A stretch of 26,122 nucleotides of DNA from Pseudomonadota bacterium. GTDB taxonomy: Bacteria; Pseudomonadota; Alphaproteobacteria; Caulobacterales; Hyphomonadaceae. The stretch is from the NCBI GenBank assembly GCA_039034035.1, contig JBCCBN010000023.1:1-26122 (forward strand), written 5' to 3'. The position numbers and the translations under genes are program-made. Under the pieces are notes generated by a model. It worked only from the letters and a program-made list of their open reading frames with translations, was not told where the DNA came from and made no database searches. Shown here piece after piece: positions 4,065 to 20,520 of the stretch; the stretch's first letter is position 1, and the number at the start of each line of letters is the position of its first letter.

Positions 4065-4373
4065 TCATGTCGCCCCGCCTGGCCCCGTCGCCTCTTTCCC
4101 GGGCAGCCCGAGCCGATACACGCCCTTGAAACCGTCTGGATCAACCGCTCGCCCCTTTCGGTAGATCGCAATCGTTCCTGCCTTCGCGAGCCGGACCGCC
4201 TCGGCTCTCACTTCGGGCAAGACGCTGCGCCAGTTCGCCGGGCTAACGACCTTCGCCGCCTCGGTTGGACAGATCGTCTTTCCGATACCCCGGACCTCAA
4301 CCAGTTCAAGAATCGCTGCGTGCACCGGCTTGCGGGCAGGTTCGTCGCTGCTTTCAGCCATCGATTGCGGCAT
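4065..4373 (-). CDS. DUF3253 domain protein
   Basis: 102 aa. The segment HAAILELVEVRGIGKTICPTEAAKVV...WRSVLPEVRAEAVRLAKAGTIAIYRKGRAVDPDGFKGVYRLGLP matches the conserved DUF3253 pattern (GKTICPSE...W...V..AA..LA..G.I...QKG..VDP). Overlaps the upstream hydrolase gene by 20 nt. Confidence 0.65.
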   Translation of the reverse strand: MPQSMAESSDEPARKPVHAAILELVEVRGIGKTICPTEAAKVVSPANWRSVLPEVRAEAVRLAKAGTIAIYRKGRAVDPDGFKGVYRLGLPGKEATGPGGAT

Positions 4374-5589
4374 AGACCAATTGCTGGAATTGCGGCCGGA
4401 TCGGAAAACACCCTGAGGGGATCATTTGGGTCATCTGGATCGCGACCAGGTCTTCCACCGGATCGATCCAGAAGAAGGTGTTCGCCAGCCCGCCCCAACT
4501 GAACGTGCCCAGCGAACCGGGCGACAGCGTTTCGGCGACATCGACAACAACGCTGCCGCCCAGGCCAAAGCCGTTCCCCTCCATCCGCGCTTCGGAGAAG
4601 GTCCTGTCGCCCATTTCCTTGATCGTCTGATTTCCCGGTAGATGGTTCAGGGTCATGAATTCCACGGTCTTGGGCGACAGAAGGCGGACATCTCCTCGCC
4701 GGCCGCCATTCAAGAGGCACTGGCAGAACTTAAGGTAATCCCGCGGCGTCGATACCAACCCGCCACCGGCATTCAGCAAAGGCGGCTGGCTCCGATAGAG
4801 CCGGCTTTCCGGCCCTCCGCCATCGCTGAGACTGATCTCGCCCGTCTCGGGATCGCGGGCATAACAAGCCATGAGGCGCGACAGCTTGGCCTCGGGAACG
4901 AAGAAATCGGTGTCCGCCATGCCGAGCGGTCCGAAAATCCTTTCGCGGAAGAACGCATCGAGCGTCTTGCCCGACGCGACTTCGACAATCCGGCCCAGCA
5001 CATCTGTCGAGTGGCCATAATTCCAGCGCGTTCCGGGCGAGAAGACCAGCGGCAGGGCCGCGAGCCGGTTGCACATCGCTTCGAGGGTTTCATCCGGTCG
5101 GGCGATCTTGTGCTCGCGATAAAGCGCATCCACCTCGGTCTGCATGAGGAACCCATAGGTCAGCCCCGACGTGTGGGTGAAAAGATCCCGCACCTGCATG
5201 GATCGGTCGGCGGGGCGGGTCTTGATACCATCGGGTCCTGCGCCATCGAAGACTTCGGTGCCGGCAAAAGCGGGGATATAGCGCGAAACCTCGTGGTCGA
5301 GCCGGATTGCGCCTGCCTCGAACAACATCATCGCAGCGACGGAAGTGATCGGCTTGGTCATCGAATAGATGCGGAAAATCGTATCTGAGTCGATGGATTG
5401 ATTACCGCCCAGCTCAGTACAGCCCCGATAGGCCTCGTGAACCACCGTGCCTTCCCGTGCCACCAGAGTGGCCATGGCGGGGAGTTTGCCGCTGCTGATA
5501 TAGGCGGACGCGAAGAAGTCCGGGATGGCATCGAGCCGCGCCGCATCCATGTTCATTGCGGCCGGTGCCGCCCCGCTTAAATCGTCCAA
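4354..5589 (-). CDS. serine hydrolase, class-C beta-lactamase/esterase family (PBP4*-like)
   Basis: 411 aa. The active-site S-x-x-K lies within FRIYSMTKPITSVAAMMLFEAG. YGHSTDVLG and a WGG...G motif follow, as is typical of AmpC-related esterases/transpeptidases. The start could be the internal M (MNMDAARLD). Confidence 0.8.
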   Translation of the reverse strand: MDDLSGAAPAAMNMDAARLDAIPDFFASAYISSGKLPAMATLVAREGTVVHEAYRGCTELGGNQSIDSDTIFRIYSMTKPITSVAAMMLFEAGAIRLDHEVSRYIPAFAGTEVFDGAGPDGIKTRPADRSMQVRDLFTHTSGLTYGFLMQTEVDALYREHKIARPDETLEAMCNRLAALPLVFSPGTRWNYGHSTDVLGRIVEVASGKTLDAFFRERIFGPLGMADTDFFVPEAKLSRLMACYARDPETGEISLSDGGGPESRLYRSQPPLLNAGGGLVSTPRDYLKFCQCLLNGGRRGDVRLLSPKTVEFMTLNHLPGNQTIKEMGDRTFSEARMEGNGFGLGGSVVVDVAETLSPGSLGTFSWGGLANTFFWIDPVEDLVAIQMTQMIPSGCFPIRPQFQQLVYAAIDG

Positions 5590-5654
5590 TCATGCCTCCC
5601 AGGCGTTTATTCTCATCATCTCATCTGTTCCATCCATTCGCGGAACCCAGCTCC

Positions 5655-6815
5655 CTACAATGCGCCGGCCTTGGCCTGCTTGGCCAGTTCGCGGCCAATG
5701 ATGATCTGCTGGATCTGGGTTGTGCCCTCATACAGCCGAAAGATTCGAACATCGCGATAGAACCGCTCGATACCATAGTCCGCCACATAGCCGGCCCCAC
5801 CGAATACCTGCACCGCCCGGTCGGCCACCCGGCCCACCATTTCCGAAGCGAACAGTTTGCACGATGAAGCGAGCATGGTGACGCTTTCGCCCGCGTCGCG
5901 CCGGCGGGCCGCATCCAGAACCATGCATTTGGCGGCATAGGTTTCGGCCTGGCTGTCGGCCATCATTGCCTGGATCAGTTGGTGGTCAGCCAGCGGCTTG
6001 CCGAATTGCTGGCGCTCCACCGCATAGGTCGCCATCTCCTTTACCAGCCGCTCGGCGACGCCCACGCACACTGCAGAGATGTGCAGCCGGCCCTTGTCCA
6101 GTACGCTCATGGCCACCTTGAACCCCTCACCTTCGCCGCCGATCCGGTTTTCCACAGGCACCCTGGCGCCCTCGAATATCACGTCGCAGATATGGGCGCC
6201 CTGTTGGCCCATCTTCTTCTCCGGCGCGCCGATAGAAATGCCGGGCGTGGCGCGGTCGACGACGAAAGCCGAAACGCCCTTGGCGCCAGGCGTACTGGGG
6301 TCAGTGCGCGCCAGAACGGTGAATACATCCGCAACGTTCGCATTGGTGATATAGCGCTTGGTCCCGTCGAGGACATAGTGGTCGCCATCGCGAATTGCGC
6401 GGGTTTGAAGGCTGCCTGCGTCTGATCCGGCCTCCGGTTCGGTAAGGGCGAAGCTGGCAATCAAATCACCGGATGCGATGCCCGGCAGGTATTTCTCTTT
6501 TTGCGCATTGGTACCGAACAGGACCAGGGCCTGGCTGCCGATCCCGACATTCGTTCCGACAACCGATCGGAACGCTGGGCTTGTGTGACCCAGTTCCATG
6601 GCCACCAGGCACTCGGTCTCCATATCGAGACCCAGCCCACCATAGGCTTCCGGCACCGCTATTCCAAACAGGCCAAGTTCCTTCATGGTGTCGACCACGC
6701 CGGGCGGCACCATGTCTTCATCGCCGACCTGGCCCTCGATCGGGATGCAAGTTTCGGTGACGAAACGGCGCACCGTCTCGATCAGCGCCGCACGGAGTTC
6801 GGTATCAAATGCCAT
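5655..6815 (-). CDS. acyl-CoA dehydrogenase
   Basis: ACAD hallmarks throughout. N-terminal alpha domain ends in GLFGIAVPEAYGGLGLD. Middle beta-barrel contains LTEPEAGSDAGSLQTRA...YVLDGTKRYITNA. C-terminal region has QVFGGAGYVADYGIERFYRDVRIFRLYEGTTQIQ. Start taken at MAFDTEL (ATG 6815, GGGAG at -10). The ORF extends in frame to 6866. Confidence 0.9.
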   Translation of the reverse strand: MAFDTELRAALIETVRRFVTETCIPIEGQVGDEDMVPPGVVDTMKELGLFGIAVPEAYGGLGLDMETECLVAMELGHTSPAFRSVVGTNVGIGSQALVLFGTNAQKEKYLPGIASGDLIASFALTEPEAGSDAGSLQTRAIRDGDHYVLDGTKRYITNANVADVFTVLARTDPSTPGAKGVSAFVVDRATPGISIGAPEKKMGQQGAHICDVIFEGARVPVENRIGGEGEGFKVAMSVLDKGRLHISAVCVGVAERLVKEMATYAVERQQFGKPLADHQLIQAMMADSQAETYAAKCMVLDAARRRDAGESVTMLASSCKLFASEMVGRVADRAVQVFGGAGYVADYGIERFYRDVRIFRLYEGTTQIQQIIIGRELAKQAKAGAL

Positions 6816-6950
6816 CAGGCGGTCTCCCGGTTCTTGTATCCATCTGCGTGACAGAATAAGCCGCAATCATGGACTTGTCGAAGGTGAAACCGGCTCGGGG
6901 TCTCGCGCCCGTTCGCGCGGTGAGCCAGCAACAGGAATGAGGGGCGGAGC

Positions 6951-7391
6951 ATGGCGACAAAGATCGTCGAAACGGGCGAATTCAGCGGTTGGACCTATTG
7001 GGACAATGAGCCCTTCGAAGCTGAAACAGTCGGTCCGTTCTACTTTCGGGTCGATGAGGCCGGTCCTGTCGCGGCCTTCCGCGCCGAGCGCCGACACATG
7101 AATGCCGGCGGGGTGGTCCATGGCGGTTGCCTCATGGCGTTCGCCGACTTCTCGCTGTTCGCCATCGCCCACACCGCCACCGATGGATATGGGCTGACCG
7201 TGGCCTTCACATCGGAGTTTCTTGCCGGCGCCCAACAGGGCGCCCGCATCGAAGCGCGCGGAGACATTCTTGGCGGTGGACGGTCTATCACATTTGTCCG
7301 CGGCCTGGTTACGACGGATGGCACGCCATGCCTCAATTTCTCTGGAACGATCAAGCGCCGGTCGGGACCGCCGGCAGAGCTCTCCAGCTGA
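6951..7391 (+). CDS. PaaI-family hotdog-fold thioesterase
   Basis: 146 aa. MNAGGVVHGGCLMAFADFSLFAIA contains the HGG motif of PaaI/YbgC-type thioesterases. ...IEARGDILGGGRSITFVRGLV... is the hotdog beta-sheet. Divergent from the ACAD gene. Confidence 0.75.
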   Translation: MATKIVETGEFSGWTYWDNEPFEAETVGPFYFRVDEAGPVAAFRAERRHMNAGGVVHGGCLMAFADFSLFAIAHTATDGYGLTVAFTSEFLAGAQQGARIEARGDILGGGRSITFVRGLVTTDGTPCLNFSGTIKRRSGPPAELSS

Positions 7392-7427: not shown

Positions 7428-8006
7428 TCAGCCCTCAGCCAGCAGGGCGTCCAGCAAGCGGTCGAGCCTGGCAACAAACTGGGCGCGCGGCACGCCCACG
7501 CCCCGGGCCATCACCACGAATTCGGTGCCCCGACATGTGGCCAGGACGTGGCGAGCCGCTTCGATGGGGCGAGTAACGCCGAGGGTTTCGAGCACGTCGG
7601 AGAGAATGGGCTCCATCGTCCGCTGCCAGGCCTTCACTTCCGATGAAAGCCCCGATGAACGGTGGGCCAAGAGCGCCATCTCATACTCTATTGCGGTGAC
7701 CGTGAGTTGGTCCGGCGTGAGAGCGGTGGTGCTGGCGAGGAACTTGACCAAGGCCTCGCGGGTCTCGATCGGCGAAGCGCCGATCGCAGTCGACAGGGTT
7801 TCCTGATAGTCGGCGACGTATTGAGAGAAGGCAGCCGAGATGAGATCGTCCCGCGCGGGAAAGTGATAGCTCACCGTCCCCGGAGAAACGCCGGCGCGCT
7901 GGGCGGCGCTACGGTGCGTCACCTTGTCTATGCCAAGCTCGCCAATGAGGCCCAGCACACCGCGTAAAATCGAGTTCCGGGCTCCCTGTCGCGCTTTCTC
8001 CACCAT
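7428..8006 (-). CDS. TetR/AcrR-family transcriptional regulator
   Basis: 192 aa. N-terminal HTH reads ARNSILRGVLGLIGELGIDKVTHRSAAQRAGVSPGTVSYHFPARDDL. The C-terminal ligand domain is alpha-helical. Divergently oriented from the repeat-protein gene across an AT-rich spacer. Confidence 0.85.
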   Translation of the reverse strand: MVEKARQGARNSILRGVLGLIGELGIDKVTHRSAAQRAGVSPGTVSYHFPARDDLISAAFSQYVADYQETLSTAIGASPIETREALVKFLASTTALTPDQLTVTAIEYEMALLAHRSSGLSSEVKAWQRTMEPILSDVLETLGVTRPIEAARHVLATCRGTEFVVMARGVGVPRAQFVARLDRLLDALLAEG

Positions 8007-8261
8007 ACGCTCCGTCTATCGTCCATCCGCACGAAGTTTGTGCAACAAATATCCGGCCAAGTCAAAACGCAAGTCCAATTTTCTTTTACTCAAGTACTCG
8101 TTTCTCGAAATCTGGAATATCGCGCCTCCATTTCGGGAATCACGCTCCGACGAGCGCATTCGCTTTTGCATGGTCTTTTCAACTCGAATAACAAGCGACC
8201 TCTTTACTTGTGCGTCTATTTCATTCACCAACACTGTAATGATCGAGTTTGGGAGCGGCAC
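8007..8261. promoter_or_regulatory. AT-rich (~40% GC) divergent promoter region between the TetR gene and the repeat-protein gene
   Basis: Runs such as caattttcttttactcaagtactcgtttctcgaaatctggaatatcg and ctctttacttgtgcgtctatttcattcacc contrast sharply with ~65% GC in the flanking DNA. It ends in a GGGAG RBS 6 nt before TTG 8262. Confidence 0.6.
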
Positions 8262-9266
8262 TTGAAACATCTTCTGTCCTTGATTTTCGCCAGTCTCGCT
8301 GTCGCCGCGCCGGTGTATGGCCAGGCCGCCGATCTGCCGCCCAGCGCGTTACCGGGGCAGTGTTTCACCCGGGTTGTTTCGCCTACAATCACAGAGACCG
8401 TCACTGAAACCGTTCTCGTCCGGCCTGAGACAGAGCGATTCGAACTCGTGCCCGCCGTGTTCCGGCCATCGACTGAACGCGTGCTCATTAAGGAGGAAAC
8501 GGTCGCATTTCAGATGGTGCCAGCCGTGTACGAAACCGTCACCGAGGACATCCTCGTTGAGCCAGCACGGACGGTGACCGAGCCGGTGGCCGCCCAATAC
8601 GAAACCTACAGCGAAACGATAATTATCACGCCCGAGAGGCAAGTCTGGAAACCCGGCCGCGGCCTGATGGGACGGTCATCCGCAACGCCCGAGGGCAGCC
8701 CGCAGGCGACGGGCGACCTGTTGTGCCGGGTTGTCGAACCGGCGGTGACCCGGACCGTGGAACGGATCCGGCTTATCTCGCCACCAACGACACGGGAACG
8801 GATGATCCCCGCAAGATTTGAAACCGTTTCCCGCCGCGTGATCGTGACGCCGGCCCGGATCGAAGAAGTGATAGTTCCGGCTGAATACCGCGACGTGCCG
8901 ACCCAGGTGCTCGTCACCCCAGCCGAAGAGCGGCGTGTCGTGGAGCCCGCGGTCTATGAAACCGTCACTCGGCAAGAGCGCGTGGGCGGGGGAGACGTGG
9001 TCTGGGCCGAGGTGCTGTGTGAAACCAACACAACCCGCTTCAAAGTCGCCGAGATCCAGGGTGCGTTGACAGACGCCGGCTATCCAACGCGGGTCGACGG
9101 CGTGTTCGGGCCCGACACATTGCGGGCGATGCAGCGGTTCCAGCAGGACGAGGCCCTCGCCGAAGGATACCTGACCATTGATACGGTGCAGGCGCTTGGC
9201 ATAAATCCCTATGAACGACCACCAGATCTGGTCTTCGCCCTGCTTGGATCCCACGCTGACGCGTGA
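8262..9266 (+). CDS. secreted tandem-repeat protein with C-terminal peptidoglycan-binding (PG_binding_1-like) domain
   Basis: Reannotated start TTG 8262 (GGGAG RBS at -6). The listed ORF from 8040 runs through the AT-rich, promoter-like DNA. Signal peptide LKHLLSLIFASLAVAAPVYG/QAAD. Then ~8 degenerate repeats, e.g. VPAVFRPSTERVLIKEE, VPAVYETVTEDILVEPAR, VAAQYETYSETIIITPER, IPARFETVSRRVIVTPAR, VPAEYRDVPTQVLVTPAE, EPAVYETVTRQERV. The C-terminus AEIQGALTDAGYPTRVDGVFGPDTLRAMQRFQQDEALAEGYLTIDTVQAL fits the PG-binding-domain pattern. Confidence 0.7.
   Translation: MKHLLSLIFASLAVAAPVYGQAADLPPSALPGQCFTRVVSPTITETVTETVLVRPETERFELVPAVFRPSTERVLIKEETVAFQMVPAVYETVTEDILVEPARTVTEPVAAQYETYSETIIITPERQVWKPGRGLMGRSSATPEGSPQATGDLLCRVVEPAVTRTVERIRLISPPTTRERMIPARFETVSRRVIVTPARIEEVIVPAEYRDVPTQVLVTPAEERRVVEPAVYETVTRQERVGGGDVVWAEVLCETNTTRFKVAEIQGALTDAGYPTRVDGVFGPDTLRAMQRFQQDEALAEGYLTIDTVQALGINPYERPPDLVFALLGSHADA
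8370..8984 (+). repeat. protein-level tandem repeats (~8 x 22-24 aa, consensus [VI]-P-A-x-[YF]-E-T-V-[TS]-E-x-[VI]-L-V-x-P-[AE])
   Basis: Periodicity was read directly from the translation (residues ~111-315 of the listed ORF). The DNA copies are diverged, so they are not a simple nucleotide repeat. Confidence 0.6.
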
Positions 9267-9337
9267 TTCGGGGTGGTATACGGGTAAGATCGTGCAAATG
9301 ACCGATCATTTCGGATCAAGGAACGAGGACGATAGGG

Positions 9338-10336
9338 GTGTTTACGCTTTCCATCCTTGACCCGACGCCAATCCGGACCGGCCAAACCGCCGCAGCAGCC
9401 TTGGATGAAACGCGCGCGCTCGCAGAGCTGGGCGACCAACTTGGATACCGCGCATACTGGGTCCAGGAACACCACAATACAGCAAGCTTTGCCGGCACCG
9501 CGCCAGAGGTCCTGATCGCCGATCTTGCCGCCCGGACACGCAAGATTCGCGTAGGATCCGGGGGAGTCATGCTTCCCAACTACTCTCCCTTGAAAGTGGC
9601 AGAGCAATTCATGACGCTTTCGGCGCTCAATGCAGGCCGGATTGATCTGGGCATCGGGCGCGCCACGGGCGCTGATCCCCGCACCTCCGCTGCCTTGCTG
9701 GGTCCCGGCGCGCAGAGTTTTCCGGCCCTGTTTCAGCTCCTGAAAGATTGGCTGCTGGAAGCTGCAGGCACGCCGCTACCCGACAATCACAAGGCAGTGG
9801 GCATCCATGCCCGTCCCATGGCCGGGTTGCCGGACCTATGGCTGCTGGCATCATCGGCCGAAAGCGCCGCTTATGCCGGGGCAGTTGGCGTGAAACTCGC
9901 CTTCGCAGAATTCTTGTCGCCGACTGGCGCCGCTGAAGCGATCGCGGCCTATCGCGACAGCTTCTCCCCGTCGCGCTTCTGCGCAACGCCTCACGCTGCC
10001 ATCGGCACCCTCGCCCTGGCCGCCGATACCGAGGCGGACGCTGAGCGGGAAGCGCGGGTTGGCCTCGCCTGGAACGTTGTTCGCGCCACTGGCCGTTTCG
10101 CACCATTCCCATCGCCTGAAGAAGCAGACGCGATCCTCGCCCGCGCAGACACGGCTCTGTTGCCAACCTTACGCGCGCGAAACTTGTCCGGAACGGCCGT
10201 CGATGTCGCGCAGACGCTGCGCTCGCACATGTCGGAAATCAACGCAGACGAGGCATTTGTCCTAACGATTTCGGCAACGATTCCCGCGCGGGCCCGATCC
10301 TATCAACTCCTGATGCAAGCGTGGCGGGACCGCTGA
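9338..10336 (+). CDS. LLM-class flavin-dependent oxidoreductase (luciferase-like monooxygenase, MsnO8-type)
   Basis: 332 aa with a GTG start. MFTLSILDPTPI...ALDETRALAELGDQLGYRAYWVQEHHNTASFAGTAPEVLIADLAARTRKIRVGSGGVMLPNYSPLKVAEQFMTLSALNAGRIDLGIGRA is the canonical N-terminal TIM-barrel signature of this family. Confidence 0.85.
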   Translation: MFTLSILDPTPIRTGQTAAAALDETRALAELGDQLGYRAYWVQEHHNTASFAGTAPEVLIADLAARTRKIRVGSGGVMLPNYSPLKVAEQFMTLSALNAGRIDLGIGRATGADPRTSAALLGPGAQSFPALFQLLKDWLLEAAGTPLPDNHKAVGIHARPMAGLPDLWLLASSAESAAYAGAVGVKLAFAEFLSPTGAAEAIAAYRDSFSPSRFCATPHAAIGTLALAADTEADAEREARVGLAWNVVRATGRFAPFPSPEEADAILARADTALLPTLRARNLSGTAVDVAQTLRSHMSEINADEAFVLTISATIPARARSYQLLMQAWRDR

Positions 10337-16425: not shown

Positions 16426-18525
16426 CTACGGCGTGCACAGGCGCGCGCTGTAAGTATTGAGGAAATTCTGAACATCGCGATAGTCCCGGCCATCGTCGGG
16501 GAGATTGAAATCGTAGTCGCCATTGCAGGCCAGCGAGGCTTCCTTGAGGTAGATGAGGATTTTCTCGGTGCCGACGGGTGGCAGGGTTTCGGCGCGGGGC
16601 CAGTCAAAATCGGTCACATCCTCATCGGTCACCGTACTGAGGGCGAAGTCGAGATTACTCCGCGCAATCTGGCGGGCGGCGCGCGCACCGGAAACGCTGA
16701 GCCGCTGGGCCCGGCGCATCTGGAACATTGCCTGTAGGAGGAGTTCGTCGGGGGATGTGCCGAGGGAGCATCGCGGCTCATCGCTGTCATTCGTCCAGCG
16801 CCCCCCGGCACGGATGCGCGCAAGGCAGGCGATTCGGGTGTAGCTCTCATCAGAGCGGCGGAGGTCAGCAGCCCGGTCGGCGTTCTCTACCGCGGTGGAA
16901 AACCGGTTTGAGAGCGCATTCACGGAGCTGAGCAGACTATAGGCCTCGGCCTGAAACGTGGGCGCATCAACAAAGGTCTGGGTGGCGTTTGAGCCTGTCA
17001 GCGCTGCAAGCGTGGCCGCCGCCGCGGTCTCATCGCCATGCTTGAACTGATGGCCGGCAAGTTTGAGCACGGGCTTGGCGGACCGGGGCGTTTCGGCGCG
17101 GGCGGCAAGGAGGATGTCGCGCACCTCATCGGGGTTGCGGCCGGCCGCATCGGCTGCGCTGGCCTGACGTAACAGAGCGTCCGATAGTGCGTTGGGCGAC
17201 GCTTCTGGATCGGCTCTCAACTGAGCCACGGCTTGGTTGAACTTGTCGGCCGCGCAGGCCCAATCCCGCTTGCGCTCGCAGGCGCTGGCCCAGCCGAGCA
17301 GGTCTTCCGCTTCACCGGAGAGGCTGGCGGCTTGCTCATAATCGAGTAGCGCCCGGTCGAACGGATCGAGGCCACCCGTGATGTCACGCGCGTCGCCAAT
17401 GCTGGCGAGGGCTTCCCATGTGCCGGCGCGTCCTCGGAAGGCTGCGGCCTGGGCTAGCGGTTCTGTGTCGGCAGCGAGGGCGCGGGAGAAATACTCTTCG
17501 GCCTGGCGCAGGAGAGCCGCATCCTCATCGTCGGTTCCGAGCCGGAGATGGGCATTGCCAAGGCCGGAAAGCGCACGGGCGCTTTGGCGGTTTGCCGCGA
17601 GCGCGCGGGTATAAAGCTGGATCGCGCCGCGCTCGTTCCCGTCTTCGGCGAGCGCGGTGTCGGCCAGCTCTACAGCATAGCTTTCCAGCCGCTCACGGGC
17701 ATCAGCCTTGAGTGGTCCATTGATCGGGCTGTTGACCACGGTTTCATACGCATCAATGGCATCCTGACCATCGAGCGCTCCATCTCGAGCGCGGTGGAGA
17801 TCGCCGAGCAGCAGATGGAAACGGTCATATTGTTCACCGCGGGTTCCGTCTTCTAGGCGCGCATAGGGCTGGGCGACCTGTCGGTCCTGGCTCATTCGGT
17901 CGATTGCGAGGCTAAGGCAGGTCTCTCGGCGGGTGCAGGTGGCGCGGCGAGGGTCGAGGCGGGCAGTCTCGACCGTCTCGGAAAGGGACGTCAAGGCTGT
18001 GGCATAGGCAAGGACGCGGTCGAGGCGAAAGGCCTGGGTCTGAGCCGTCCACGCGCGGATCGCTCGCTCGCGTTCGGCCTCACTCCGCACGGTCCGGAGG
18101 GTCTCGGGCACCGTATTCAGCCAGCCATCGGTGTTCTGGAGGTTGTCGAATGAGGCGCGCAGCAAGGCGACCGATGCCTGCAGGGGTTCAATGGAGGGCT
18201 GGCCGCTGCTCATGGACGCGGCGTCAAGATAAGCGCGGCCGGCATGGTAGTAGGCGACGCCGCGCTCCCTGACGCGCAAGTTTGTATCATTGTCTGCCAC
18301 GCTTTCACAGCGCCGGGCCAGATCGAGCGCGTCGGCAGCGCCTGACGCACGCGGAGCGGCGAGGTCGATACAACTTGCGCTAGCGGTGGATATGGGTGCT
18401 GGACCGGGTGTGGGCGCTGTCGTCGTGGTCTCGCATGCGGCCAGCGAAACCAGGGAAATTGCTGCAAACACCCGTGAAAGGAACGACCTGTCCATGGTCA
18501 AAGCTACACTCCCCGAACGCGCCAT
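16426..18525 (-). CDS. hypothetical TPR-like helical-repeat lipoprotein
   Basis: 699 aa. Lipoprotein signal with lipobox (…FAAISLVSLAAC/ETTTT) when read from the internal start MDRSFLS (18495). The remainder is Ala/Leu/Arg-rich helical-repeat sequence with several TPR-like A-x-x-x-Y/L-A spacings and multiple Cys. No catalytic motif recognised. Confidence 0.65.
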   Translation of the reverse strand: MARSGSVALTMDRSFLSRVFAAISLVSLAACETTTTAPTPGPAPISTASASCIDLAAPRASGAADALDLARRCESVADNDTNLRVRERGVAYYHAGRAYLDAASMSSGQPSIEPLQASVALLRASFDNLQNTDGWLNTVPETLRTVRSEAERERAIRAWTAQTQAFRLDRVLAYATALTSLSETVETARLDPRRATCTRRETCLSLAIDRMSQDRQVAQPYARLEDGTRGEQYDRFHLLLGDLHRARDGALDGQDAIDAYETVVNSPINGPLKADARERLESYAVELADTALAEDGNERGAIQLYTRALAANRQSARALSGLGNAHLRLGTDDEDAALLRQAEEYFSRALAADTEPLAQAAAFRGRAGTWEALASIGDARDITGGLDPFDRALLDYEQAASLSGEAEDLLGWASACERKRDWACAADKFNQAVAQLRADPEASPNALSDALLRQASAADAAGRNPDEVRDILLAARAETPRSAKPVLKLAGHQFKHGDETAAAATLAALTGSNATQTFVDAPTFQAEAYSLLSSVNALSNRFSTAVENADRAADLRRSDESYTRIACLARIRAGGRWTNDSDEPRCSLGTSPDELLLQAMFQMRRAQRLSVSGARAARQIARSNLDFALSTVTDEDVTDFDWPRAETLPPVGTEKILIYLKEASLACNGDYDFNLPDDGRDYRDVQNFLNTYSARLCTP

Positions 18526-19062: not shown

Positions 19063-20520
19063 CTAGGTGCAATTGGGGGTGAAGTCGGGGTGCTCTGATT
19101 GCAGGAGGGCGGCGGCCAACTCGTAGTGGGGCGGTTTGAGCAGCTTGCGGATCTCGCACATGTTGAACTCGTCGGCCTGGAACAGCGCCACATTGCGGCG
19201 GGCGTCTTCAGCCGCGCCGGCGACGCCAATCTCGCGGGCCACAAAAGCGCGCACCAGTTCGTTCCAGGCGAATAGACCGGTCCGCTCGACCGCCTCGGCA
19301 TTGGCAAAGGCGCCGCTGAAGTCATCATCAAGGAGATAGGCGAAGCTGATATTCTCGCCCGACCCGCTCACCTGGTTCTCGGTTTGCTGGAGTTGGCGGC
19401 GCAAGTCGATGGCCCGCTGCAGGCAGGCGTGCATGAGGCGTGTGCGATCAGAACCATAGGTGATTTCGCCCGTGGGACAGGCATCGCGCGCCAAGTCGTG
19501 GGCGGAGTTGACCGACTGGTATCCGCCCGCATCGGCGGCGATCAGGACCGTTCCAAGACCGTGGAAGGCATTCATCTCAAGGGTGAGCAGGGCCTCCCTA
19601 CGGGCCGCACTTCCGCCGGCATCATCGGTGGATACCGCTTCGCTGCGTTGAACGGCCAGGCTGTAGTTCCGGAGCGCTTCTTCCACCAGCCCCTGTTTTC
19701 GAGCGCATTGTCCGCGCCAGTAAAGCTGCTGGGGGCCAAGCGTCTCTAGTGCGCCGATGGCGTCGGTGGCAGCGAAAAGGGCGTCACAGTCTTCAAGCGC
19801 ATAGTTGGACCGAGGTGAGGAGGCATTCTCGAACGCGATCCAGGCCAGCCCGGTCTTGGCGATACCGGCGAGACCGGGCGCCGACTGAACGGACGTGAAG
19901 GCGTCCTGGGCCTCGCGGAGGGTTTGGGGCAGACCGGTTGCACCACGAGGAATTTCGTCTCCGCCGCGCTCCCATTCCATCAAGAGGAGGACGCCATTGA
20001 ACAGCGCGGTCTGGGATGCAGTTGCGGTGGTCCCGGTTGGATCAGCCGCCTCGATACTCTGTTCGAGCCTTTGTTCGCTGGCAAGGGATCGGACACCGCG
20101 CTCGAGGAAGTCGATAGAGGCTTCGAGGCCGCTATCGATCGATACGGACTGGTCGCCGACCTGAGTGATGGAGAGCATTTCGGCATAGTTGCGGCGGATC
20201 GAGGCTTCCTGCCCGGCAATCCGGTTACTGAGATCGGAGGCGAGGATCCGGGTTTCGAAAGCGCGGCGTTCGAGACGCTCGGAATCCTCGGCCAGGGTCT
20301 GGGCGACGAAGTAATAATAAGCGCCCAAGGCCGCGGACATGGCGACGACGAGGAACAACGCGCTGAACCCAGCTACGAGAATGCCGCGCATGCCGCGTTG
20401 CTCAGCGGCGACCAGGGCAATGAGTTCTGAATCTTCTTTTTCCGTCACTGCGGCCCCTCTCAACCGACAACCGATCCGATCATATCCATCCAGATGCTCC
20501 GCTTGGACTTGCTGGCGCAT
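19063..20520 (-). CDS. hypothetical membrane-anchored protein (N-terminal signal-anchor plus ~440-aa soluble domain)
   Basis: 485 aa. One TM (GILVAGFSALFLVVAMSAALGAYYYFVAQ) follows a short basic N-terminal tail. The remainder is helical and Ala/Leu-rich with 5 Cys. An alternative start is ATG 20391. It overlaps the upstream 2-TM gene by 61 nt if read from 20520. Confidence 0.6.
   Translation of the reverse strand: MRQQVQAEHLDGYDRIGCRLRGAAVTEKEDSELIALVAAEQRGMRGILVAGFSALFLVVAMSAALGAYYYFVAQTLAEDSERLERRAFETRILASDLSNRIAGQEASIRRNYAEMLSITQVGDQSVSIDSGLEASIDFLERGVRSLASEQRLEQSIEAADPTGTTATASQTALFNGVLLLMEWERGGDEIPRGATGLPQTLREAQDAFTSVQSAPGLAGIAKTGLAWIAFENASSPRSNYALEDCDALFAATDAIGALETLGPQQLYWRGQCARKQGLVEEALRNYSLAVQRSEAVSTDDAGGSAARREALLTLEMNAFHGLGTVLIAADAGGYQSVNSAHDLARDACPTGEITYGSDRTRLMHACLQRAIDLRRQLQQTENQVSGSGENISFAYLLDDDFSGAFANAEAVERTGLFAWNELVRAFVAREIGVAGAAEDARRNVALFQADEFNMCEIRKLLKPPHYELAAALLQSEHPDFTPNCT

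What the first reader, a model, noticed from the sequence alone, without database searches (positions are those of the whole stretch)
8262..9266. Unrecognised secreted tandem-repeat protein ending in a peptidoglycan-binding domain
The mature protein starts at a TTG with a good RBS and signal peptide. After that it is essentially ~8 diverged copies of a 22-24-aa unit. The unit has a conserved V/I-P-A-x-Y/F-E-T-V-T/S-E-x-V/I-L-V-x-P-A/E core whose alternating polar/hydrophobic pattern suggests beta-hairpins. A Gly/Ser-rich break after repeat 4 is followed by a C-terminal ~60-aa PG_binding_1-like module (ALTDAGY...VDGVFGPDTLRAMQRFQ). I do not recognise the repeat as any named family. The architecture (repeat array plus wall anchor) suggests a periplasmic structural or ligand-binding protein tethered to peptidoglycan. 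Its regulation by a dedicated divergent TetR gene and an AT-rich promoter suggests conditional expression. This is the most clearly novel protein-level object in the window.
Basis: partly seen in the sequence, partly recalled or inferred. Interest (0 to 1): 0.72.

Follow-up and report, generated by a model that had tools for sequence, protein, structure and literature searches.

The report
Wall-anchored periplasmic beta-repeat protein, uncharacterised
This gene encodes an exported protein made of eight 23-residue beta-hairpin repeats followed by a peptidoglycan-binding domain; it belongs to a large, widespread bacterial family that databases name only by that last domain and whose repeat module has no described family, solved structure or known function.

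Summary

The repeat block matches nothing in Pfam, NCBIfam, PHROGs, PDB sequences, or the PDB and BFVD fold libraries. AlphaFold2 (pLDDT 80) predicts an all-beta meander of alternating 12- and 7-residue strands.

The protein is not unique. At least 1,332 cluster representatives (50% identity) carry the module, and all ten scanned carry PG_binding_1. Most members with long N-termini add a lipobox, and several a helical stalk. I therefore read the family as non-enzymatic envelope proteins docked on peptidoglycan, probably tethers, spacers or scaffolds. This gene would be a non-lipidated Hyphomonadaceae paralogue.

The divergent TetR is conserved only in this paralogue clade; the main clade sits beside purB. 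A conserved 16-bp palindrome lies next to tetR, and related copies lie just after the gene's stop codon. That makes TetR control plausible but unproven.

The function is inferred, not shown. Interest is moderate.

The parts
7428..8006 (-). Divergent TetR-family regulator gene (192 aa)
   Evidence: TetR_N (31.7 bits) and TetR_C_31 (36.8 bits), both above their cut-offs. It is a conserved divergent neighbour in the paralogue clade.
8019..8034 (.). Perfect 16-bp palindrome TCGTCCATCCGCACGA, the candidate TetR operator. It lies 13 nt upstream of the tetR start codon, directly before the tetR RBS.
   Evidence: Conserved at 8-15 nt from the tetR start; 12 of 15 TetR-adjacent loci have an upstream match. 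Background density is 0.036-0.049 matches per kb. Binding was not tested.
8203..8231 (+). Candidate promoter of the repeat gene: TTTACT, 17 nt, CACCAA
   Evidence: A CTTTAC(T/G) block with a spaced CAyMAn hexamer is conserved in the alignment of seven intergenic regions. The consensus sigma-70 scan did not call it. This is inference only.
8251..8255 (+). Ribosome-binding site GGGAG, 6 nt before the TTG
   Evidence: Read directly from the sequence. The same arrangement occurs in L006 and L013.
8262..9266 (+). Coding sequence of the 334-aa precursor (the end coordinate includes the stop codon)
   Evidence: identical to P0001. Full-length homologues have 41-74% identity.
8262..8324 (+). Sec-type signal peptide (aa 1-21; cleavage at VYG|Q, or two residues later at GQA|A)
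   Evidence: Lys2, a hydrophobic core with mean KD 2.19, and small residues at -3/-1. The family consensus is AxAQ. There is no lipobox.
8325..8360 (+). Conserved N-terminal motif QAADLPPSALPG, preceding Cys34
   Evidence: P26 and G32 are invariant; A23 and P27 are conserved in at least 90% of 40 homologues. 97 of 161 short-N-terminus members have A-D-x-P-P.
8361..8657 (+). Repeat block 1 (aa 34-132): Cys34 strand, four 23-aa units, closing strand with invariant Trp129
   Evidence: Periodicity statistics, unit HMM, AF2 strands 34-132 with pLDDT 74-87.
8646..8717 (+). Junction (aa 129-152): invariant W-K-P-G-x-G-L-x-G-R motif, then a variable Gly/Ser/Ala-rich loop
   Evidence: W129, G132, G134, G137 and R138 are invariant; K130 and L135 are conserved in at least 90%. 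W-K is also invariant in the lipoprotein subfamily. pLDDT is below 50 at 134-139 and 145-148.
8718..9014 (+). Repeat block 2 (aa 153-251): Cys155 strand, four 23-aa units, closing strand with invariant Trp248
   Evidence: Offset-119 self-similarity to block 1, z 8.4. AF2 strands 153-251. Unit HMM.
9045..9197 (+). PG_binding_1 domain (aa 262-312; the helical domain starts near invariant Cys253)
9198..9263 (+). C-terminal tail (PYERPPDLVFALLGSHADA region), specific to the TetR-adjacent paralogue clade
   Evidence: Present in P0001-P0025 and absent from the purB-adjacent clade, which ends at ...LGVSPY.
9290..9326 (.). Two further operator-like palindromes (9290-9305, one mismatch; 9311-9326, two mismatches), between the stop codon and the next gene (luciferase-like monooxygenase, starts 9338)
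   Evidence: Equivalent copies lie 24-139 nt after the stop codon in L003/L008/L009, L007, L011, L012 and L041. They are not part of a significant RNA hairpin.

Best explanation
The gene encodes a Sec-exported, non-enzymatic envelope protein.

Its C-terminal PG_binding_1 domain docks it non-covalently on the peptidoglycan sacculus. The rest of the mature protein is a water-soluble all-beta array. Two blocks each contain four 23-residue hairpin units, a 12-residue strand and a 7-residue strand joined by Pro-containing turns. Each block opens with a conserved Cys strand and closes with a conserved Trp strand. An invariant WKPGxGLxGR motif and a flexible loop join the blocks.

I read the array as a passive structural element, either a spacer/tether or a docking surface held at the cell wall. 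Across Proteobacteria the same array plus PG_binding_1 is usually fused to an N-terminal lipid anchor, often with a helical stalk. The number of units also varies between proteins.

The window's copy belongs to a Hyphomonadaceae subfamily that lacks the lipid anchor, and within it to a paralogue clade kept next to a TetR repressor gene. Its expression is probably conditional, governed by that TetR through palindromic operators flanking the gene.

Shown here: export signal features, repeat periodicity, the PG_binding_1 match, the predicted beta secondary structure, the family architectures, and the synteny and palindromes.

Inferred: peptidoglycan binding itself, the tether/scaffold role, the three-dimensional shape of the array, and TetR control.
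For: PG_binding_1 scores above Pfam's threshold and matches solved PG-binding domains by fold.

No catalytic domain is detectable, and no invariant His, Ser or Asp lies upstream of the PG-binding domain (first invariant Asp is D279). The invariant residues of the repeat region are P, A, G, W, C, R, T, V and E.

Five residues (V, E, T, R, P) make up 63% of the repeat region. It has no hydrophobic segment and GRAVY -0.14, which indicates a soluble, exposed beta structure rather than a membrane barrel.

AF2 gives pLDDT 80 with 18 strands alternating 12 and 7 residues. The same pattern appears in the lipoprotein member P0127, behind a 29-residue helix.

All ten diverse members scanned carry PG_binding_1, and one also has OmpA.

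Most members with long N-termini have a lipobox.

Unit count ranges from 3 to 16 with a mode of 8, and some homologues have whole 23-aa units inserted.

The gene is stand-alone, with no conserved enzyme partner in distant loci.

The TetR clade is monophyletic and carries conserved palindromes.
Against: No experiment on any family member was found.

I cannot tell whether the array is an extended ribbon or a two-block sandwich.

The window protein has no membrane anchor. For this copy a 'tether' role would need a second, unknown attachment.

The strongly conserved WKPGxGLxGR loop and the three invariant Cys suggest a specific interaction or chemistry that a purely passive spacer does not explain.

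The tetR-proximal operator is about 170 nt from the candidate promoter of the repeat gene, and the sigma-70 consensus scan found no promoter-like site on the + strand of the region scanned (7900-9450).
Confidence: 0.5

Rival explanations
1. It is a regulator or scaffold of peptidoglycan enzymes. The beta array, especially the invariant WKPGxGLxGR loop, would bind and position or modulate L,D-transpeptidases, lytic transglycosylases or endopeptidases at the wall. This is how non-enzymatic envelope proteins such as DalA, NlpI or LpoA/B work.
For: The most conserved stretch outside the PG domain is a loop, not a strand. That is typical of an interaction site. In Rhodobacter sphaeroides a generically named 'PG-binding domain-containing protein' (RSP_1880) co-precipitates with the divisome lipoprotein DalA and with L,D-transpeptidases (PMC10470522). 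It also belongs to the CenR envelope regulon (PMC9275681).
Against: I could not check whether RSP_1880 belongs to this family. No PG enzyme gene is a conserved neighbour in any of the loci examined. Repeat-number variation is easier to explain for a spacer than for a specific enzyme-binding surface.
Confidence: 0.22
2. It is doubly attached to the wall as a strap. The mature N-terminus (…A-D-x-P-P) would be covalently linked to meso-DAP by L,D-transpeptidases, as with the alanyl-aspartyl N-termini of Brucella and Agrobacterium outer-membrane proteins. The C-terminus would bind peptidoglycan non-covalently.
For: In 97 of 161 non-lipidated members, A-D sits three residues before the invariant PP and within a few residues of the predicted signal-peptidase site. 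The alternative cleavage GQA|AD would expose A-D as the new N-terminus. The subfamily with this motif is the one that lacks the lipid anchor, as if one attachment replaced the other. The Brucella precedent is described in PMC10787603.
Against: The cleavage site is not determined. AxA|Q is the more canonical site, and it leaves Q-x-A-D rather than A-D at the terminus. The window's closest relatives often have A-Q, A-E or A-S instead of A-D. The precedent concerns beta-barrel outer-membrane proteins in Rhizobiales, not soluble proteins in Hyphomonadaceae. Nothing was tested.
Confidence: 0.08
3. It is a cryptic enzyme. The beta region would carry a new catalytic activity on the cell wall, using one of the invariant cysteines, with PG_binding_1 as the usual targeting domain of a hydrolase.
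For: PG_binding_1 is most often found fused to wall hydrolases; all PHROG hits are endolysins and most PDB hits are wall enzymes. Three Cys are invariant across both subfamilies. The authors of PMC9275681 speculated on autolytic activity for RSP_1880.
Against: No His, Ser or Asp is invariant upstream of the PG-binding domain (first invariant Asp is D279) to partner a Cys. The region is a low-complexity repeat with variable unit number. It matches no enzyme family by sequence or fold. One Cys opens each block, which looks structural.
Confidence: 0.07
4. It is a surface or secreted adhesin or matrix protein, for example associated with the stalk, bud or holdfast. In that case the PG_binding_1 domain would bind an extracellular polysaccharide rather than the sacculus.
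For: Acidic beta-repeat arrays rich in Thr, Val and Glu are common in adhesins. The family is abundant in marine surface-attached Hyphomonadaceae.
Against: There is no autotransporter, T1SS, T9SS or sortase-type signal. The lipoprotein relatives and the OmpA-containing relative point to the periplasm. No secretion genes lie nearby.
Confidence: 0.05

Closest known systems
Outer-membrane-to-peptidoglycan tethers: Lpp (Braun's lipoprotein), Pal, and OmpA-family lipoproteins such as R. rubrum PapS (PMC11369160)
   Same: Small, abundant-type, non-enzymatic envelope proteins with a wall-binding end. The lipidated relatives of this protein have the same overall logic: lipid anchor, often a helical stalk, then a wall-binding domain. 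One relative even carries an OmpA domain.
   Different: There is no sequence or fold relationship. Wall binding is through PG_binding_1, not an OmpA-like domain or a C-terminal Lys. The spacer is a beta-repeat array rather than a coiled coil alone. The window's own protein has no lipid anchor.
PG_binding_1 (PF01471) proteins with solved structures: SleB N-terminal domain (6tci), phage endolysins (5nm7, 3bkh), L,D-transpeptidases (4lpq, 8da2), EpsAB/GspA periplasmic domain (4g54)
   Same: The C-terminal 60 residues are a bona fide member of this domain family by sequence and predicted fold.
   Different: In nearly all of those proteins the domain targets an enzyme. Here it follows a repeat array with no detectable catalytic domain.
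DalA (RSP_1200) and RSP_1880 of Rhodobacter sphaeroides (PMC10470522, PMC9275681)
   Same: Alphaproteobacterial envelope proteins that bind peptidoglycan non-covalently and lack enzymatic domains. RSP_1880 carries the same generic name as this family and is found with divisome and L,D-transpeptidase proteins.
   Different: DalA is annotated as an SCP/PR1 (CAP)-domain lipoprotein, which is a different family. Homology of RSP_1880 to the window protein could not be checked with the collections available.
Single-layer beta-sheet repeat proteins such as Borrelia OspA (comparison from my own knowledge, not tested)
   Same: A meander of solvent-exposed antiparallel strands rich in Thr, Glu, Lys/Arg and Val, without a classical hydrophobic core.
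N-terminal alanyl-aspartyl wall-linked outer-membrane proteins of Brucella and Agrobacterium (Godessart et al. 2021, as summarised in PMC10787603)
   Same: An A-D dipeptide lies at or near the predicted mature N-terminus in most non-lipidated family members. The organisms are Lpp-less Alphaproteobacteria.
   Different: Those proteins are beta-barrel porins. The exact mature N-terminus here is unknown, and no linkage was tested.

Membership tests
PG_binding_1 (Pfam PF01471) | Profile score above the curated gathering threshold | tested here: met
   34.7 bits against a cut-off of 23, E 2e-8, aa 262-312 covering profile positions 5-57 of 57.
PG_binding_1 (Pfam PF01471) | Small three-helix bundle fold, as in solved PG-binding domains | tested here: met
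PG_binding_1 (Pfam PF01471) | Actual binding to peptidoglycan | not testable with these tools
   Needs a sacculus co-sedimentation assay.
Sec-exported periplasmic protein | N-terminal signal peptide with n-, h- and c-regions and a signal peptidase I site | tested here: met
   Lys2, hydrophobic aa 4-17 (mean KD 2.19), VYG|Q or GQA|A. The pattern is conserved in 40 homologues. It was judged from sequence features only, because no SignalP-type predictor was available.
Bacterial lipoprotein (Lpp/Pal-type tether) | Lipobox [LVI][ASTVI][GAS]C at the end of the signal peptide | tested here: not met
   The first Cys is residue 34, in PGQC, 17 residues after the hydrophobic core. Lipoboxes are present in most distant members with long N-termini.
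OmpA-like / Pal wall-binding proteins (PF00691) | OmpA_C-like domain | tested here: not met
   No PF00691 hit in the window protein. It is present only in relatives such as P0149.
Any described repeat or domain family for aa 34-251 | Significant match in Pfam-A, NCBIfam, PHROGs, PDB sequences or fold libraries | tested here: not met
Outer-membrane beta-barrel | Amphipathic transmembrane strands, aromatic girdles, C-terminal beta-signal | tested here: not met
   The repeat region is 15% acidic and 12% basic with GRAVY -0.14. The C-terminus is a helical domain plus a tail ending ...SHADA.
TetR-family repressor with divergent target (for the neighbour gene) | TetR_N helix-turn-helix plus a ligand-binding C-terminal domain | tested here: met
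   TetR_N 31.7 bits and TetR_C_31 36.8 bits.
TetR-family repressor with divergent target (for the neighbour gene) | Palindromic operator in the shared intergenic region, conserved among orthologous loci | tested here: met
   TCGTnC-N4-GnACGA is perfect at 8019-8034; 12 of 15 TetR-adjacent loci have an upstream match, against 1 of 71 other loci.
TetR-family repressor with divergent target (for the neighbour gene) | Operator overlaps the promoter of the repeat gene, and TetR represses it | tested here: inconclusive
   The operator abuts the tetR RBS and lies about 170 nt from the candidate promoter of the repeat gene. Extra copies lie after the stop codon. Binding and repression cannot be tested here.
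L,D-transpeptidase-linked proteins with an alanyl-aspartyl N-terminus | A-D at the mature N-terminus | tested here: inconclusive
   The A-D-x-P-P motif is present in the window protein and in 97 of 161 non-lipidated members. Whether A-D is the first dipeptide depends on the undetermined cleavage site.
L,D-transpeptidase-linked proteins with an alanyl-aspartyl N-terminus | Covalent bond to meso-DAP | not testable with these tools
   Needs mass spectrometry of digested sacculi.

The most novel reading that the evidence does not exclude
The beta-repeat plus PG_binding_1 family is a previously unrecognised, widespread class of envelope struts in Lpp-less Proteobacteria. A beta-ribbon, whose length is set in 23-residue steps, would fix the distance or load path between a membrane (through a lipid anchor, or in Hyphomonadaceae through an N-terminal A-D end linked by L,D-transpeptidases) and the sacculus. 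The window's TetR-controlled paralogue would be an inducible variant that remodels this connection in response to a small-molecule signal, possibly lipid-derived.
Probability: 0.12. Interest if true: 0.75.

Novelty: new variant of a known kind. Interest (0 to 1): 0.45.

Why it matters
Many Alphaproteobacteria and other Proteobacteria lack Lpp. How they couple the outer membrane to the wall, and how they set periplasmic width, is only partly understood.

A family this large (over a thousand 50%-identity clusters) that is found in Alpha- and Gammaproteobacteria (one hit is labelled Nitrospira) is a reasonable candidate for part of that answer. It always keeps the same beta-array-to-PG_binding_1 order and often carries a lipid anchor.

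At minimum it defines an unannotated domain (a 23-aa hairpin repeat organised in Cys...Trp blocks) that merits a family entry and a structure. The predicted 12/7-strand meander has no match among solved folds.

The paired paralogues in Hyphomonadaceae, one beside purB and one under a TetR with flanking palindromes, also offer a simple genetic handle. Nothing here is surprising enough to overturn current views, and no function is shown.

Tried and rejected
- Longer ORF from GTG 8040 (408 aa): rejected. Homologues and the public gene call start at the TTG.
- Recent DNA-level tandem duplication: rejected. Tandem Repeats Finder finds only a 12-nt, 2.1-copy trace at 8389-8413, and the units share only 32% identity.
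- Riboswitch or other known RNA in the long AT-rich leader: no Rfam match at E up to 0.1.
- Downstream palindromes as terminator hairpins: rejected. Fold z-scores run from -1.3 to +0.25, and the scan found no terminator after the gene.
- TetR operator in front of the acyl-CoA dehydrogenase/thioesterase pair: no match within 2 mismatches in the 6867-6950 intergenic region (nearest hit 6964, inside the thioesterase gene).
- First iterated unit HMM for counting repeats: unstable, finding 6 of 8 units. It was replaced by a profile of 312 register-anchored units.
- Conserved functional neighbours in distant members: none found.
- Literature: searches for the motif, for RSP_1880, and for lipoprotein/coiled-coil/PG_binding_1 combinations found no characterised member.
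- Plasmid collection: a single weak hit, a short Methylobacterium relative.
Full report
**1. What is in the sequence**

The ORF at 8262-9266 (+) starts with TTG, six nucleotides after GGGAG (8251-8255), and encodes 334 residues. The identical protein is in the public collection (P0001, from a 26,122-nt contig, which is this window). It is named only 'MAG: peptidoglycan-binding domain-containing protein [Pseudomonadota bacterium]'.

The start is supported in two ways. Homologues begin at the same place (P0002, 73% identical, starts MKHLL). The TTG with a GGAG-type RBS is conserved in two diverged loci. The longer in-frame ORF from GTG 8040 is not used.

The N-terminus has Lys2 and a hydrophobic core (aa 4-17, mean Kyte-Doolittle 2.19). 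It has small residues at VYG|Q or GQA|A. The mature part has no other hydrophobic segment. This fits a Sec signal peptide cleaved by signal peptidase I. There is no lipobox.

**2. The repeats are real**

Self-comparison of aa 35-246 gives a best off-diagonal local alignment of 193, against 45.6 +/- 9.4 in 100 shuffles (z 15.7). Diagonal sums peak at these offsets:
- offset 23: z 10.9
- offset 46: z 5.9
- offset 69: z 3.3
- offset 119: z 8.4, which aligns block 1 with block 2

Anchoring on the conserved Pro gives exact 23-residue spacing: P41, P64, P87, (A110), then P160, P183, P206, P229. That makes eight units in two blocks of four, with 32% mean pairwise identity.

A profile of 312 register-aligned units from 40 homologues has the consensus V-I-P-A-V-Y-E-T-V-T-E-Q-V-L-V-R-P-E-R-T-E-x-x. 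Pro3 is 98% conserved, Ala4 86% and Thr8 82%.

At the DNA level there is no tandem repeat beyond a 12-nt trace. The duplication is therefore old.

Five residues (V, E, T, R, P) make up 63% of the region. It is acidic (pI about 5) and not hydrophobic.

**3. Block architecture**

An alignment of 40 full-length homologues (41-74% identity) shows that each block opens with a Cys strand. These are G-x-C34-F-x-R-V and T-G-x-L-L-C155-R-V. Each block closes with a Trp strand (V-W129-K, V-W248-x-E-V).

After block 1 comes an invariant W-K-P-G-x-G-L-x-G-R motif and a variable Gly/Ser/Ala loop (aa 133-152). After block 2 the Trp strand runs straight into L-C253-E-T-N-T-T, and the PG-binding domain follows.

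C34, C155 and C253 are invariant here and in the distant lipoprotein subfamily, as is W-K. Longer relatives have one Cys per block plus one; P0121 has seven.

Some homologues carry one or two extra whole 23-residue units. Across 345 family members the unit count runs from 3 to 16, with a mode of 8.

**4. The C-terminal domain**

Residues 262-312 match PG_binding_1 (PF01471) with E 2e-8 and 34.7 bits, against a cut-off of 23. A family profile hits PG-binding domains of solved wall enzymes (4xxt, 5tv7, 6tci).

**5. Predicted structure of the repeats**

With the 40-sequence alignment, AlphaFold2 gives mean pLDDT 80.4 and pTM 0.45. Residues 34-132 and 153-251 are each nine beta-strands that alternate about 12 and about 7 residues, joined by two-residue turns at the Pro positions. 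The linker is disordered.

A distant lipoprotein member (P0127) shows the same pattern behind a 29-residue helix. Its confidence is lower, at pLDDT 64.8 from 14 sequences.

From the strand lengths alone, a meander of alternating long and short hairpins would climb diagonally, which would give an elongated ribbon. The two blocks could equally pack face to face. I had no coordinates or PAE, so this remains open.

No library gave a fold match for the repeats:
- Foldseek against PDB returned only long-hairpin pore toxins at TM about 0.1.
- BFVD returned nothing meaningful.
- The AlphaFold database library was unavailable.

**6. No named family**

Pfam, NCBIfam and PHROGs hit only the PG-binding domain. 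No paper in the library contains the motif YETVTE. Searches for characterised relatives found none.

**7. The family is large**

The full protein finds at least 1,999 proteins in the 90%-identity collection. The best 120 listed are mostly 310-370 aa, and nearly all align over most of the query. The repeat block alone (aa 34-246) finds 1,332 representatives at 50% identity with E up to 1e-3, of which 692 have E up to 1e-10. Their lengths range up to 922 aa.

All ten diverse representatives scanned carry PG_binding_1. One also has an OmpA domain, and one has a CAP domain.

Named sources include Hyphomonas, Henriciella, Ponticaulis, Hirschia, Amphritea, Acidiferrobacterales, other Gammaproteobacteria and Nitrospira.

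Among members carrying the N-terminal PP...G-x-C motif, 161 have a short N-terminus like the window protein. 71 have a long one, and most of those start with a lipobox; several then have a helical, coiled-coil-like stretch.

A short Methylobacterium relative has 2 + 2 units and a Gly/Tyr-rich tail instead of PG_binding_1.

**8. Genomic context**

A genome scan returned 80 loci. Those with a family-level label are mostly Hyphomonadaceae; single records are labelled Maricaulaceae, Caulobacterales and Rhodobacterales. Clustering of flanking ORFs shows two neighbourhoods:
- In 54 of 86 loci the divergent upstream gene is adenylosuccinate lyase (purB). Examples are Hyphomonas johnsonii and the ORF clusters.
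- In 14 loci, including the window, it is a TetR gene.

The TetR-adjacent proteins form their own clade in a neighbour-joining tree. They share a C-terminal tail (PY-x-RPPDLV[FY]ALLG...) that the purB clade lacks.

Several MAGs carry one copy of each type, for example L013 + L014, L006 + L015 and L008 + L026. These are therefore paralogues, and the window holds the TetR-linked one.

Upstream synteny is kept across this clade: beta-lactamase-like, acyl-CoA dehydrogenase, 4HBT thioesterase, then TetR. Downstream genes differ between loci. Distant lipoprotein members have no conserved neighbours.

**9. Regulation**

The intergenic region 8007-8261 is 47% GC, against about 62% around it.

An alignment of seven such regions shows a conserved palindrome, TCGTnC-N4-GnACGA. 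In the window it is perfect at 8019-8034, 13 nt from the tetR ATG and directly before its RBS.

- 12 of 15 TetR-adjacent loci have an upstream match within one mismatch, against 1 of 71 other loci.
- Elsewhere its density is 0.036-0.049 per kb.
- Further copies lie 24-139 nt after the stop codon of the repeat gene in 8 of 15 loci. In the window these are 9290-9305 (one mismatch) and 9311-9326 (two mismatches), just before the luciferase-like monooxygenase gene.
- In L003 the downstream copies sit between convergent genes, so they are not simply the operator of a downstream promoter.
- They do not form significant RNA hairpins.
- No copy lies in front of the acyl-CoA dehydrogenase/thioesterase pair.

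A conserved CTTTAC(T/G)-N17-CAyMAn block (window 8203-8231) is a candidate promoter for the repeat gene. It lies about 170 nt from the tetR-proximal operator, and the sigma-70 consensus scan did not call it.

My reading is that TetR autoregulation is well supported by position. The gene is bracketed by TetR-type sites, which argues for a functional unit. Repression of the repeat gene is plausible but not shown.

**10. Most likely function**

There is no catalytic signature. No His, Ser or Asp is invariant upstream of the PG-binding domain (the first invariant Asp is D279, within it). Several features point to a non-enzymatic, wall-docked structural protein. These are the soluble charged beta array, the constant pairing with a wall-binding domain, the frequent lipid anchor with or without a helical stalk, the unit-number variation, and the stand-alone genes.

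I put about 0.5 on a tether, spacer or scaffold role. The window's copy would be a non-lipidated, conditionally expressed paralogue.

The main rival (about 0.2) is a scaffold or regulator of wall enzymes that acts through the invariant WKPG loop. In R. sphaeroides, a protein with the same generic name (RSP_1880) co-precipitates with DalA and L,D-transpeptidases and is CenR-regulated (PMC10470522, PMC9275681). I could not test whether it is a homologue.

A speculative lead concerns most non-lipidated members. They have A-D-x-P-P at or near the predicted mature N-terminus. This recalls the alanyl-aspartyl ends by which Brucella outer-membrane proteins are linked to the wall (PMC10787603).

**11. 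Verdict**

The object is one member of a big, already-deposited but uncharacterised family, and the TetR link is specific to one paralogue clade. The repeat module is undescribed and has no structural match, which makes it worth a family definition and a structure. No function is demonstrated here.

- Novelty: new variant of a known kind (a peptidoglycan-anchored envelope protein with a new repeat module).
- Interest: 0.45.

Noticed in passing
window 9290-9305 and 9311-9326; L003 6116-6131 and 6174-6189; L007 5124-5139; L011 4803-4818 and 4840-4855; L012 5050-5065: Copies of the tetR-proximal palindrome TCGTnC-N4-GnACGA recur 24-139 nt after the stop codon of the repeat gene in several diverged loci. 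The gene is therefore bracketed by operator-like sites. In L003 they lie between convergent genes. They are not significant RNA hairpins.
   Followed up: partly
L006+L015, L013+L014, L008+L026, L009+L027, L007+L031, L011+L033: Single Hyphomonadaceae MAGs carry two paralogues. One sits beside purB and ends ...LGVSPY. The other sits beside a TetR gene and has an extra C-terminal tail (PYxRPPDLV[FY]ALLG...). The two types form separate clades.
   Followed up: yes
window 8646-8675 (aa 129-138): W-K-P-G-x-G-L-x-G-R, between the two repeat blocks, is the most conserved motif outside the PG-binding domain. W-K is also invariant in the distant lipoprotein subfamily. It lies at the edge of a low-confidence loop, and its role is unknown.
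   Followed up: partly
window 8328-8342 (aa 23-27, A-D-L-P-P): Most non-lipidated family members have A-D-x-P-P within a few residues of the predicted signal-peptidase site. [quoted passage not shown]
   Followed up: partly
L089 2294-3007 (Methylobacterium bullatum NZ_LR743510.1, unannotated there): A 237-aa relative has only 2 + 2 repeat units and the same Cys...Trp block design. It has a Gly/Tyr-rich C-terminal tail instead of PG_binding_1.
   Followed up: no
P0149, P0315 (about 735 aa); P0123 (755 aa): These are other architectures of the same repeat module. P0149 and P0315 combine repeats with an OmpA domain and PG_binding_1. P0123 combines repeats with PG_binding_1 and a CAP/SCP domain, the domain type annotated for DalA (RSP_1200) of R. 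sphaeroides.
   Followed up: no
window 16426-18525 (-) and 19063-20520 (-): Two long ORFs (699 and 485 aa) have no Pfam match at E up to 1e-5.
   Followed up: no
window 4354-7391: A conserved block lies upstream of tetR: a beta-lactamase-like protein, an acyl-CoA dehydrogenase and a 4HBT thioesterase. It is kept in the TetR-adjacent loci L002 and L003 but has no copy of the palindrome in its own intergenic region.
   Followed up: partly
window aa 216-298 of the protein (nt 8907-9155): There is a weak NCBIfam hit (E 0.001, 17.9 bits, far below the cut-off of 329) to NF004786 'hypothetical protein' (PRK06132.1-3, 418-position model). It spans the last repeat unit and the start of the PG-binding domain and may mark a distantly related, equally unnamed family.
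   Followed up: no
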